A stretch of 64,000 bases of DNA. It comes from the human T2T-CHM13v2.0 reference genome, Homo sapiens. Location of the stretch: the NCBI RefSeq assembly GCF_009914755.1, contig NC_060941.1; one strand, 5' to 3'. Numbering within the stretch: position 1 is the first letter of the stretch; the number at the start of each line of letters is the position of its first letter. Of this stretch, positions 26,093 through 27,398 are shown piece by piece. The position numbers and the translations under genes are program-made. A model generated the notes under the pieces. It was given only the letters and a program-made list of their open reading frames with translations. It was not told the origin of the DNA and did not search any database.

Positions 26093-27398
26093 CTTTTTTT
26101 TTTTTTTTTTTTTTTTTGAGACAGAGTTTTGCTCTTGTTGCCCAGACTAGAGTGCAATGGCACAATCTTGGCTCACCGCAACCTCTGCTTCCTGGGTTCA
26201 AGCAATTCTTCTGCCTCAGCCTCCCAAGTAGCTGGGATTACAGGCATGTGCCACCATTCCCGGCTAATTTTTTCTTTTTTTTTTCTTTTTTGAGATGAAG
26301 TCTCACTCTTGTCACCCAGGCTGGAGTGCAATGCGAGCTCCACCTCCTGGGTTCAAGTGATTCTCCTGCCTCAGCCTCCCGAGTAGCTGGGATTACAGGG
26401 GCAGGCCCAGCTAATTTTTATATTTTTAGTAGAGATGGGGTTTCACCATGTTGGCCAGGCTGGTCTTGAACTCCTGACTTCAGGCAGTCTGCCCGCCTGG
26501 GCCTCCCAAAGTGCTGGGATTACAGGCATGAGCCACCGCGCCCGGCCAAGGGGTGGACCCCGCCGTGGTTCCACCGCGGCTCAAACCTAGGACCTTCTGC
26601 ATGTAAAGCAGATGTGATAACTGCTACACTATAGAATCGCATGCTTTTTTTTTTTTTTTTTTTTTTTTTTTGAGATGGAGTCTCATTCTGTCACCCAGGC
26701 TGGAATGCAGTGGCGCGATCTTGGCTCACTGCAACCTCTGTGTCCTGGGTTCAAGCAATTCTCTGCCTCAGCCTCCTGAGTAGCTGGGATTACAGGCGCC
26801 CACCACCACGCCCGGCTAATTTTTTTTTTTTTTATACGGAGTCTTGCTCTGTCACCCAGCCTGGAGTGCAGTGGCGCGATCTTGGCTCGTGGCAAGCTCC
26901 ACCTCCTGGGTTCACGCCATTCTCCTGCCTCAGCCTCCCGAGTAGCTGGGACTACAGCGCCCACCACCATGCCCGGCTATTTTTTTTGTATTTTTAGTAG
27001 AGACAGGGTTTCACCGTGTTAGCCAGGATGGTCTCGATCTCCTGACCTTGTGATCCGCCTGCCTCAGCCTCCCAAAGTGCTGGGATTACAGGCATAAGCC
27101 ACCGCGCCCGGCCTACGCCCAATTTTTATACTTTTAGTAGAGACAGGGTTTCACCATGTTGGCCAGGGTGATCTTGAACTCCTGACCTCATGATTCATCC
27201 GCCTTGGCCTCCCAAAGTTCTGGGATTATAGGCATGAGCCACTGCACCCAACCTCATGCCCGGCTAATTTTCTATTTTTAGTAGAGACAGGGTTTCTTCA
27301 TGTTGGTCAGGCTGGTCTCGAACTCCCGACCTCAGTTGATCTGCCCACCTCGGCCTCCCAAAGTGTTGGGATTACATGCGTGCGCCACCGCGCCCGGC
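26093..27398 (-). mobile_element. Nested cluster of four Alus enclosing the tRNA-Val copy
   Basis: Outer Alu TSD acttggatttcc at about 26082 and 27400; inner insertions in A-rich linkers and tails. Confidence 0.92.
26566..26638 (-). pseudogene. tRNA-Val(TAC)-derived pseudogene, 73 nt
   Basis: GATTCTATAGTGTAGCAGTTATCACATCTGCTTTACATGCAGAAGGTCCTAGGTTTGAGCCGCGGTGGAACCA; intact anticodon arm TCTGC-TT-TAC-AT-GCAGA; B-box TTCGA decayed to TTTGA. Confidence 0.9.

What the first reader, a model, noticed from the sequence alone, without database searches (positions are those of the whole stretch)
26271..26671. Second pre-tRNA-Alu chimera (Val-TAC) with the same architecture 35 kb away
Minus strand, in order: poly(A) of a host Alu, leader (A)GCATGC, 73-nt Val-TAC tRNA (26638-26566), 18-nt trailer CGGCGGGGTCCACCCCTT ending in TT, full Alu starting exactly at GGCCGGGCGCGG (26547), A tail. 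The simplest reading is insertion of the unit into the poly(A) tail of another Alu, so its TSD would be pure A and cannot be seen; that host Alu has the TSD cat(t/g)cccggctaatttt at about 26255 and 27255. Two different tRNA isotypes with the same leader-tRNA-trailer-Alu layout in one window argue for a recurrent mechanism rather than chance adjacency (inference).
Basis: partly seen in the sequence, partly recalled or inferred. Interest (0 to 1): 0.75.

Follow-up and report, generated by a model that had tools for sequence, protein, structure and literature searches.

The report
Unprocessed tRNA precursor copies fused to Alu
Two dead tRNA copies in this window are reverse-transcribed copies of raw, untrimmed tRNA precursors joined head-to-tail to a full Alu element, one instance of a recurrent but little-described by-product of the human LINE-1 copying machinery.

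Summary
Rfam finds two tRNAs in the 64-kb window, both on the minus strand: a decayed Val-TAC (26566-26638) and a decayed Arg-TCG (61182-61255). Each carries a short leader. Each has a trailer ending in T2-3 that abuts base 1 of a full-length Alu.

The Val unit aligns to one chr11 Val-TAC gene from the leader through the 18-nt trailer, and the alignment stops at the Alu start. The Arg unit does the same with a chr17 Arg-TCG gene.

The Arg unit plus its Alu is flanked by one 9-bp target-site duplication, so it was a single insertion. The Val unit lies in another Alu's poly(A), so its duplication cannot be seen.

A strict genome-wide pattern and homology searches found about 13 more such loci (Lys, Asp, Tyr with its intron, Leu, Cys, Gly and others). 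Eight of them have one duplication around the whole unit.

Most likely mechanism: LINE-1 reverse transcriptase copies an Alu RNA to its 5' end, then jumps to the oligo(U) 3' end of a nascent pre-tRNA. RNA ligation before reverse transcription is the main rival.

I rate this a new variant of the known chimeric-retrocopy kind. I found no description of it in the papers I could read; two key older papers were not held.

The parts
26645..26671 (-). Pure poly(A) tail of the host Alu (Alu#2), directly upstream of the Val unit. It is the presumed insertion target.
   Evidence: sequence
26639..26644 (-). 5' leader GCATGC of the pre-tRNA-Val-TAC copy.
   Evidence: Matches GCACGC upstream of the chr11 gene at 5 of 6 bases; the difference is a C-to-T change at a CpG. 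The leader alone is not significant: other genes also reach 5 of 6 at some offset.
26566..26638 (-). tRNA-Val-TAC pseudogene, 73 nt.
   Evidence: Rfam RF00005, 37.1 bits. It is 64/73 identical to the chr11 gene, with 4 of the 9 differences at CpG sites. Its GCAG D-loop derives from the GCGG form, which only this gene has among the four Val-TAC genes seen.
26548..26565 (-). 3' trailer CGGCGGGGTCCACCCCTT, ending in TT (remnant of the Pol III terminator).
   Evidence: Matches the chr11 gene trailer CGGCGTGATTCATACCTTTTT at 13 of 18 bases, ungapped. Homologous trailers occur in two further copies, L020 and L018.
26291..26547 (-). Full-length Alu (Alu#4) fused to the trailer at its base 1. It has two internal deletions.
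   Evidence: It aligns to positions 1-266 of a mixed Alu consensus, with non-CpG divergence 5/205.
26268..26290 (-). A-rich tail of Alu#4, merged with what remains of the host poly(A).
27255..27271 (-). Upstream copy of the duplication AAAATTAGCCGGGCATG, in the outer Alu (Alu#1).
26255..26271 (-). Downstream copy of the duplication, AAAATTAGCCGGGAATG. The pair brackets host Alu#2 (with a nested younger Alu at about 26834-27113) plus the Val unit.
61263..61271 (-). Upstream target-site duplication AAAAATTAG of the Arg unit, in the mid linker of a host Alu.
61256..61262 (-). Leader AGTAGGA of the pre-tRNA-Arg-TCG copy.
   Evidence: Matches AGCCGGA upstream of the chr17 gene at 5 of 7 bases.
61182..61255 (-). 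tRNA-Arg-TCG pseudogene; the anticodon has decayed to TCA.
   Evidence: Rfam 52.5 bits; ARAGORN. My count from the sequences gives 6 substitutions against the source, all CpG transitions, plus 1 inserted T.
61174..61181 (-). Trailer TAACGTTT.
   Evidence: Matches GAACGTTT(T) of gene C17:75926857-75926940 at 7 of 8 bases. The alignment ends at the Alu start.
60875..61173 (-). Full-length Alu, starting GGTCGGGTGCGG, with a (CAAA)n/A tail.
60866..60874 (-). Downstream target-site duplication AAAAATTAG, followed by the rest of the host Alu.

Best explanation
Both units are single-event, LINE-1-mediated chimeric retrocopies. The 5' part copies a primary, unprocessed Pol III pre-tRNA. It still carries its 5' leader and a 3' trailer ending in the U run left by termination. 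The 3' part is a full-length Alu with its A tail.

Most likely sequence of events (inferred): L1 ORF2p nicks an A-rich target and primes on the Alu RNA poly(A). It copies the Alu RNA to its 5' end. It then jumps end-to-end onto the oligo(U) 3' end of a nascent pre-tRNA in the nucleus and copies that to its 5' end, or stops short. The product is sealed and leaves one target-site duplication around the whole unit.

The Val unit came from the pre-tRNA of a Val-TAC gene on chr11 and landed in the poly(A) tail of an older Alu. The Arg unit came from an Arg-TCG gene on chr17 and landed in the A-rich linker of another Alu. Both tRNA parts are now decayed pseudogenes with no evident function. The Val unit lies antisense in a THRA intron, and the Arg unit lies downstream of NR1D1.

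Shown here: the pre-tRNA origin, the exact junctions, and the single duplication for the Arg unit and 8 other loci. Inferred: the template jump itself, its order, and co-insertion for the Val unit.
For: 1. Source flanks. The Val unit aligns over 26644..26548 to C11:59501849-59501945 at 85% identity, and the alignment stops at the Alu start. Its trailer matches 11/16 in register, against at most 8/16 for 23 other tRNA gene flanks. The Arg unit aligns over 61258..61174 to C17:75926857-75926940 at 91%, again ending at the Alu start.

2. Neither source gene has an Alu downstream. The fusion was therefore not copied from the source locus.

3. One duplication, AAAAATTAG, brackets leader + tRNA + trailer + Alu + tail at the Arg unit. 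Nothing duplicated abuts the Alu alone.

4. Recurrence.
- The strict pattern (B box, gap, TT, Alu 5' end) gave 15 hits against 0 for the reversed control. Six of the 15 are tRNA + trailer + Alu.
- With TTT and up to 1 mismatch there were 79 hits against 0 for the control. Twelve of the 79 are true, and one of those is the window's Arg unit.
- Homology searches added two further copies carrying a trailer homologous to the chr11 Val-TAC gene's: L020, fused to an Alu monomer, and L018, followed by a 5'-truncated Alu.
- A single duplication around the whole unit is visible at L022, L026, L028, L030, L052, L054, L055, L056 and L020.

5. The donors are precursors.
- The chr2 Tyr copy aligns at 89%, contiguously through its intron, 3-nt leader and whole 15-nt trailer, to C8:66539059-66539169.
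- The chr4 Cys copy is 98% identical to C17:40018348-40018439 over leader + tRNA + 15 nt of trailer.

6. Two loci, L034 and L056, have tRNA parts truncated at the 5' end but complete at the 3' end. This fits 3'-to-5' copying.
Against: - No duplication can be seen for the Val unit itself, so single-event insertion there is argued by analogy.
- The Val tRNA body shows more non-CpG change (5 of about 61 sites) than its Alu (5/205 against a mixed consensus). Co-arrival does not predict this, although the numbers are small and the consensus is crude.
- The Val trailer differs from today's source at 5 of 16 positions.
- The exact 'T run to Alu base 1' junction at the 12 pattern-derived loci was imposed by my search pattern. 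Only the loci found by homology are unbiased: window Val, window Arg, L020, L018 and L013. Of these five, 3 join at Alu base 1, 1 joins a truncated Alu, and 1 joins a non-Alu 22-nt piece + A6.
- At the Arg unit the base pair before the duplication is CC, not the TT of the L1 endonuclease consensus.
- Sequence alone cannot separate a template jump from RNA ligation before reverse transcription.
Confidence: 0.65

Rival explanations
1. RNA ligation first. The pre-tRNA 3' end is ligated to the Alu RNA 5' end in the nucleus, and the chimeric RNA is then retrotransposed as one template. This is what was shown for U6/L1 with RtcB.
For: Moldovan et al. 2019 (PMC6789731, passages read) show that RtcB joins U6 to L1 RNA before retrotransposition. 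They also question how ORF2p would switch to an RNA that ends in poly(U). The product sequence would be identical to what is seen here.
Against: According to those passages, RtcB needs a 2',3'-cyclic phosphate donor and a 5'-OH acceptor. From general knowledge, a nascent pre-tRNA ends in oligo(U)-3'-OH, and a primary Alu transcript that starts at base 1 carries a 5' triphosphate. In 3 of the 5 loci found by homology the junction is at Alu base 1 rather than at a cleavage site. This chemistry was not tested here.
Confidence: 0.15
2. This rival applies to the Val locus only. A tripartite single event: ORF2p copied Alu#4 RNA, jumped to the pre-tRNA, then jumped again onto the poly(A) of a second Alu RNA (Alu#2). 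The one visible duplication, AAAATTAGCCGGG(C/A)ATG, would then bracket all three parts.
For: That duplication does bracket Alu#2 + poly(A) + Val unit + Alu#4. This reading needs no invisible duplication. Double template jumps have been reported: the title and abstract of PMC2104539 were seen in the search listing.
Against: Alu#2 is more diverged than Alu#4 (non-CpG 14/237 against 5/205), which fits two events. The difference is weak and confounded by subfamily. Two other chimeras, L029 and L034, also sit directly behind another Alu's poly(A). This suggests poly(A) tails are simply favoured targets.
Confidence: 0.1
3. Two independent insertions that happen to abut. Either an Alu landed just downstream of an older tRNA pseudogene, or a tRNA retrocopy landed at the 5' edge of an Alu.
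For: Alu-rich regions are full of nested and abutting insertions. In the pattern search most hits were of this kind: 9 of 15 and 67 of 79 are plain Alu insertions or unclear. For the Val unit no duplication excludes this reading.
Against: An independent Alu insertion would repeat the bases just upstream of the Alu after its tail, as seen in L031, L036 and L057-L060. Neither window unit shows this. The Arg unit and 8 to 9 other loci have one duplication around the whole unit. The trailer ends exactly where a Pol III transcript would end.
Confidence: 0.07
4. A composite tRNA-Alu SINE family: copies of one master element transcribed from the tRNA promoter through the weak T2-3 run into the Alu.
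For: T2-3 is too short to terminate Pol III (general knowledge). Such a unit could therefore be transcribed as one RNA with an A tail. Composite 7SL/tRNA SINEs exist in galago and tree shrew, as cited in PMC3575423 (passages read).
Against: Searches of the window's own genome with the Val and Arg units found no second copy of the same composite. The three Val-TAC copies have different partners: a full Alu, an Alu monomer and a truncated Alu.
Confidence: 0.03

Closest known systems
U6/L1 and U6/Alu chimeric retrocopies. Buzdin 2002/2003 and Garcia-Perez 2007 are known to me only as cited in Doucet 2015 (PMC4476161, passages read).
   Same: The 5' part is a small nuclear Pol III transcript with an intact U-run 3' end. 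It is fused in sense to a poly(A)-bearing retroelement, and the whole is flanked by one target-site duplication.
   Different: Here the donor is an unprocessed pre-tRNA with leader, trailer and, for Tyr, the intron, not U6. The 3' partner is a full-length Alu. Doucet 2015 describes U6/Alu chimeras as rare and not reproduced experimentally.
tRNA/LINE-1 chimeras (Law and Burns 2026, PMC13174262; abstract, section 12 and passages read).
   Same: tRNA-derived sequence is co-inserted with an L1-mobilised element and bounded by duplications. That paper reports the type as newly found (n = 21).
   Different: Those are mostly half-length tRNAs lying antisense to L1, and the authors attribute them to twin priming. 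The loci here are full-length precursors in sense, joined to Alu. That survey looked only at sequences adjoining L1, not Alu.
Pre-tRNA and 'tailless' tRNA retropseudogenes. Schmitz et al. 2004 is not held; I know it only through citations in PMC4476161, PMC5322556 and PMC2912911.
   Same: Unprocessed nuclear tRNA precursors serve as L1 reverse transcriptase templates.
   Different: According to the citing papers, tailless copies lack an A tail and are primed internally by microhomology. Here the A tail and the priming are supplied by the fused Alu.
Alu/LINE-1 chimeric insertions (Law and Burns 2026, section 12).
   Same: A full-length Alu in sense takes part in a two-part insertion bounded by one duplication.
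   Different: There the Alu is the 5' partner riding on L1. Here the Alu is the 3', primed partner.

Membership tests
L1-mediated chimeric retrocopy (U6/L1-type) | Two unrelated RNA-derived parts are fused in the same orientation, with no poly(A) between them. | tested here: met
   The trailer T run abuts Alu base 1 at 26548/26547 and at 61174/61173.
L1-mediated chimeric retrocopy (U6/L1-type) | One target-site duplication of about 7-20 bp brackets the whole unit, and the 3' part ends in an A tail. | tested here: met
   Arg unit: AAAAATTAG on both sides and an A-rich tail. Val unit: it has an A tail, but its duplication cannot be determined because the unit lies in a poly(A).
L1-mediated chimeric retrocopy (U6/L1-type) | The target resembles the L1 endonuclease site TT/AAAA. 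| tested here: inconclusive
   The Arg duplication starts with AAAAA but is preceded by CC. The Val target is a pure A run.
L1-mediated chimeric retrocopy (U6/L1-type) | Both parts arrived at the same evolutionary node. | not testable with these tools
   No other primate genome is available. Crude divergence figures are given.
Retrocopy of an unprocessed pre-tRNA | The leader and trailer match the flanks of one source gene and end at its terminator T run. | tested here: met
   For sister loci.
Tailless tRNA retropseudogene | No A tail; the 3' end is primed by microhomology and is often 3'-truncated. | tested here: not met
   Both units have complete 3' ends and an Alu with an A tail. The definition is taken from citing papers.
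tRNA/LINE-1 chimera (2026 type) | A half-length tRNA lies antisense, next to an L1 5' end. | tested here: not met
   The tRNA is full-length, in sense, and its partner is an Alu.
Functional tRNA gene | Intact cloverleaf with a high covariance score. | tested here: not met
   Val scores 37.1 bits, has 9 substitutions and is missed by ARAGORN. Arg scores 52.5 bits and its anticodon has mutated to TCA.
Composite tRNA-7SL SINE family | Many copies share the same composite junction. | tested here: not met
   No second copy of either composite was found in the window's own genome.

The most novel reading that the evidence does not exclude
Pre-tRNA/Alu chimeras are an uncatalogued, genome-wide class of at least dozens of loci across many isotypes. 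They are made when ORF2p, after running off the 5' end of an Alu RNA, jumps preferentially onto oligo(U)-ended nascent Pol III transcripts.

tRNA promoters are internal, so such copies arrive ready to be transcribed. The process could therefore be a route by which tRNA genes disperse. Two candidates:
- The chr4 Cys-GCA copy scores 73 bits and is flanked by a duplication.
- The chr10 Val-TAC copy scores 70.7 bits, carries the chr11 gene's trailer and is followed by a truncated Alu.

These may be working or recently working tRNA genes born this way.
Probability: 0.3. Interest if true: 0.7.

Novelty: new variant of a known kind. Interest (0 to 1): 0.55.

Why it matters
- These loci are a natural record of what L1 reverse transcriptase does after reaching the 5' end of an Alu template. 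They show that the acceptor RNAs are nuclear, unprocessed Pol III transcripts that still have leader, intron and trailer. This places that step of Alu retrotransposition in the nucleus.
- They offer a second system, beside U6/L1, for the open question of template jump versus RNA ligation. The end chemistry differs here (3'-OH oligo(U) donor, 5'-triphosphate acceptor), so the two models predict different outcomes.
- They suggest a route for dispersing tRNA genes, which carry their own promoters.
- They flag that some tRNA predictions in genome annotations are chimeric retrocopies.
- For this locus itself there is no sign of function. Both tRNA parts are decayed passengers in Alu clusters.

Tried and rejected
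- ARAGORN on the window misses the Val tRNA and mislabels the Arg tRNA as SeC. I relied on Rfam instead.
- Four papers were not held: Schmitz 2004, Buzdin 2003 and Garcia-Perez 2007. I cannot exclude that they list tRNA/Alu chimeras.
- Literature searches found no description of a pre-tRNA/Alu chimera in the held library. The term sets were:
  - chimeric retrogenes + template switching + tRNA + Alu;
  - pre-tRNA + Alu + retropseudogene;
  - tailless retropseudogenes;
  - six mixed terms;
  - 'tRNA-Alu' and 'tRNA Alu chimera/chimeric' (no paper held any of these three phrases, and the 4 papers listed held only 'Alu chimeras');
  - Buzdin + related terms.
- I considered that GCATG in the 'leader' is a short duplication of host Alu#2, because the outer duplication ends in GCATG. 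I rejected this. GCATG upstream is the outer Alu's own sequence, and GCATGC matches the source gene flank GCACGC.
- The leader match alone is not significant, since other genes reach 5/6. I do not lean on it.
- The Alu age comparison with a mixed in-script consensus is too coarse to order the insertions. The nested young Alu scores 6.3% only because of subfamily differences.
- Of the 260 hits of the TT pattern with 1 mismatch, only the first 100 were listed. The count of true chimeras therefore comes from the TTT pattern.
- Of the 79 hits, I saw 26 in sequence context. The other 53 were judged from the matched string alone.
- L018 (chr10) shows no clear duplication, so it stays a candidate.
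- After no further genome sequence could be fetched.
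Full report
**What is there**

- a pure poly(A) at 26671-26645, which ends an Alu;
- GCATGC at 26644-26639;
- a 73-nt tRNA at 26638-26566;
- CGGCGGGGTCCACCCCTT at 26565-26548;
- a full-length Alu beginning GGCCGGGCGCGG at 26547, with an A-rich tail.

Rfam places a tRNA at exactly 26566-26638(-), 37.1 bits against a gathering score of 29. ARAGORN does not see it.

The companion unit is equally real:
- leader AGTAGGA at 61262-61256;
- tRNA at 61255-61182, 52.5 bits; ARAGORN calls it SeC because the anticodon now reads TCA;
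- trailer TAACGTTT at 61181-61174;
- a full-length Alu from 61173.

These are the only two tRNA matches at gathering score in the whole window.

**Origin of the tRNA parts**

Val unit:
- It aligns to one gene, C11:59501849-59501945(-), at 85% identity over window 26644..26548. That span is leader, tRNA and trailer, and the alignment stops at the first base of the Alu.
- The gene reads ..GCACGC, tRNA, CGGCGTGATTCATACCTTTTT.
- The window trailer matches 13 of 18 bases ungapped, or 11 of 16 before the T run.
- Against 23 other tRNA gene flanks, with up to six offsets allowed, the best score was 8 of 16.
- The leader matches 5 of 6. A leader this short is not significant by itself, because two unrelated genes also reach 5 of 6.
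- The tRNA body is 64/73 identical to this gene. Its D-loop GCAG is one CpG transition from the GCGG form, which among the four Val-TAC genes seen only this gene has.

Arg unit:
- It aligns at 91% to C17:75926857-75926940(+) over 61258..61174, again ending at the Alu start.
- The trailer matches 7 of 8 and the leader 5 of 7.
- By my count from the sequences, all six substitutions in the tRNA body are CpG transitions.

Neither source gene has an Alu behind it.

Both tRNA parts are therefore copies of primary transcripts. They were not cut by the 5' or 3' processing enzymes, and they end in the U run left by Pol III termination.

**One insertion or two**

Arg unit:
- It sits in the A-rich linker of a host Alu.
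- AAAAATTAG occurs directly before the leader (61271-61263) and directly after the fused Alu's tail (60874-60866). The host Alu then continues.
- Nothing is duplicated around the Alu alone.
- This is the signature of one target-primed insertion of the whole unit.

Val unit:
- It lies between the poly(A) of host Alu#2 and the resumption of an outer Alu.
- The only visible duplication, AAAATTAGCCGGG(C/A)ATG at 27271-27255 and 26271-26255, brackets Alu#2 (with a nested younger Alu) plus the Val unit.
- A single tripartite event is not excluded.
- Alu#2 is somewhat more diverged than the fused Alu (non-CpG 14/237 against 5/205 from a mixed consensus of 98 Alus). This leans towards two events, but weakly.
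- Against co-arrival, the Val tRNA body carries 5 non-CpG changes in about 61 sites, more than its Alu. The numbers are small.

**Recurrence**

Homology searches with the source genes found further copies that keep the flanks:
- L020 (chr2) is a Val-TAC copy. It has leader ACAT, the homologous trailer TGGGGTGGTTGATTCCCATTT, and an Alu left-monomer-like element. It is bracketed by AAA(G/C)CTGCA(C/T)CAC. It scores 49.3 bits.
- L018 (chr10) is a nearly intact Val-TAC at 70.7 bits. Its homologous trailer, TGGTGTGGTCTGTTGTTTT, runs straight into a 5'-truncated Alu with a poly(A). No clear duplication is visible, so it is a candidate only.
- L013 (chr4) is a second Arg-TCG precursor copy. It is followed by 22 non-Alu bases and A6.

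Genome-wide pattern search:
- The pattern was tRNA B box, a gap, TT, then the Alu 5' end with CpG decay allowed. It gave 15 matches, against 0 for the reversed control. Six of the 15 are tRNA + trailer + Alu.
- With TTT and one mismatch allowed there were 79 matches, against 0 for the control, and all were listed.
- I saw 26 of the 79 in sequence context (and the window). The other 53 I judged from the matched string.
- Twelve of the 79 are true chimeras (isotypes from ARAGORN, unless marked as my reading):

| Locus | tRNA part |
|---|---|
| L022 | Lys-TTT |
| L026, L029, L053 | Asp-GTC |
| L028, L052 | Tyr with intron (L028 by my reading) |
| L030 | Leu-TAA |
| L054 | Cys-GCA |
| L055 | Gly-GCC (my reading of the anticodon) |
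| L034 | Ile-like, 5'-truncated (isotype from recall) |
| L056 | Thr-like, 5'-truncated (isotype from recall) |
| window | the Arg unit |

- Rfam scores for the full-length copies run from 33.4 to 73 bits.
- One duplication around the whole unit is visible at L022, L026, L028, L030, L052, L054, L055 and L056.
- L029 and L034, like the window's Val unit, sit directly behind another Alu's poly(A).
- The remaining pattern hits are ordinary Alu insertions whose own duplication abuts the Alu (for example L031, L036, L057-L060), or are unclear.

Two sister loci were traced to their sources:
- The chr4 Cys copy is 98% identical to C17:40018348-40018439 from the first leader base through 15 nt of trailer.
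- The chr2 Tyr copy aligns at 89%, contiguously through the intron, a 3-nt leader and the full 15-nt trailer, to C8:66539059-66539169. The alignment stops at the Alu start.

Retained introns show that the templates were unspliced nuclear precursors.

**Mechanism**

The anatomy is a poly(A)-bearing Alu at the 3' side, a complete precursor 3' end joined to Alu base 1, occasional 5' truncation of the tRNA part, and one duplication. It fits target-primed reverse transcription that starts on Alu RNA, runs to its 5' end, and continues on the 3' end of a pre-tRNA.

This is the template-switch model proposed for U6/L1 chimeras (Doucet 2015, passages).

The main rival is ligation of the two RNAs before reverse transcription, which was shown for U6/L1 with RtcB (Moldovan 2019, passages). 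That enzyme needs a cyclic-phosphate donor and a 5'-OH acceptor. From general knowledge, a nascent pre-tRNA ends in U-3'-OH, and an Alu transcript starting at base 1 carries a triphosphate. I therefore favour the jump, but sequence cannot decide between them.

One caution applies. The exact 'T run to Alu base 1' junction at the pattern-derived loci was imposed by my pattern. Among the five loci found without it, three join at base 1, one joins a truncated Alu, and one joins a non-Alu fragment.

**Comparison with what is known**

- Chimeric retrocopies with U6 and other small RNAs are established. U6/Alu cases are described as rare.
- Pre-tRNA retropseudogenes are attributed to Schmitz 2004 by papers I could read.
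- tRNA/L1 chimeras were reported as new in 2026. They are half-length tRNAs, antisense, and the survey only looked next to L1.
- Six searches of the held library found no account of pre-tRNA/Alu chimeras.
- Buzdin 2003, Schmitz 2004 and Garcia-Perez 2007 were not held and may bear on this.
- I therefore rate it a new variant of a known kind.

**Verdict**

The locus itself is a pair of decayed passengers without evident function.

The wider point is of moderate interest: a recurrent class spanning many isotypes that records where L1 reverse transcriptase goes after an Alu template ends, and that may seed new tRNA genes.

One thing is unexplained. Two of the roughly 13 loci my pattern can detect genome-wide lie in this single window (see the notebook entry written).

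Noticed in passing
L018 = G000:C10:5852728-5855807; tRNA at locus 1508-1580(-): This is a nearly intact Val-TAC tRNA (70.7 bits). Its trailer is homologous to that of the chr11 gene and runs directly into a 5'-truncated Alu right arm with a poly(A). It may be a tRNA gene born as a chimeric retrocopy. No clear target-site duplication was found.
   Followed up: partly
L054 = G000:C4:126812335-126813141; tRNA at locus 586-657(-): This is an intact Cys-GCA tRNA (73 bits) with 5-nt leader GTGGT, fused to a CpG-rich, young-looking Alu and bracketed by AAAACT(A/G)CAAGCA. Its source is C17:40018348-40018439 at 98% identity. The source trailer has six more bases before its T4 run that the copy lacks. 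The fused Alu lacks its first G.
   Followed up: partly
L013/L082 = G000:C4:40880642-40880740(-): This is a second retrocopy of the same chr17 Arg-TCG precursor, with leader GGA and trailer AAATGTTT. It is followed by 22 non-Alu bases and A6, not by an Alu. This may reflect a jump very early after priming on some polyadenylated RNA.
   Followed up: no
window 60554-61537, minus strand: Three-deep nesting: outer Alu, host Alu, then the Arg chimera. Every insertion is at the same A-rich linker motif (AAAAATTA..) of the element it entered. The Val locus shows the same habit (outer Alu linker at 27271 and 26271).
   Followed up: partly
L028 = G000:C8:66121443-66124495, compared with C8:66539059-66539773: The chr8 chimera with an intron-bearing, Tyr-like tRNA lies only about 0.4 Mb from a cluster of Tyr genes on the same chromosome. 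One gene of that cluster is the source of the chr2 Tyr chimera. The source of L028 itself was not traced.
   Followed up: no
G000:C5:132700654-132700693, C11:20320867-20320906, C10:6211078-6211122: These are short matches to only the 5' 40-45 nt of tRNA-Cys. They look like the 3'-truncated 'tailless' tRNA retropseudogenes described in the literature.
   Followed up: no
L014/L084 = G000:C17:75926599-75926666(-): A degenerate Arg-TCG-like sequence with an internal deletion lies about 200 bp upstream of the Arg-TCG source gene, on the opposite strand.
   Followed up: no
window 25500-27800: There are many sub-threshold Rfam matches to mir-1268, mir-3135, mir-1285 and Metazoa_SRP. All of them lie inside Alu elements and are Alu-derived look-alikes, not separate genes.
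   Followed up: no
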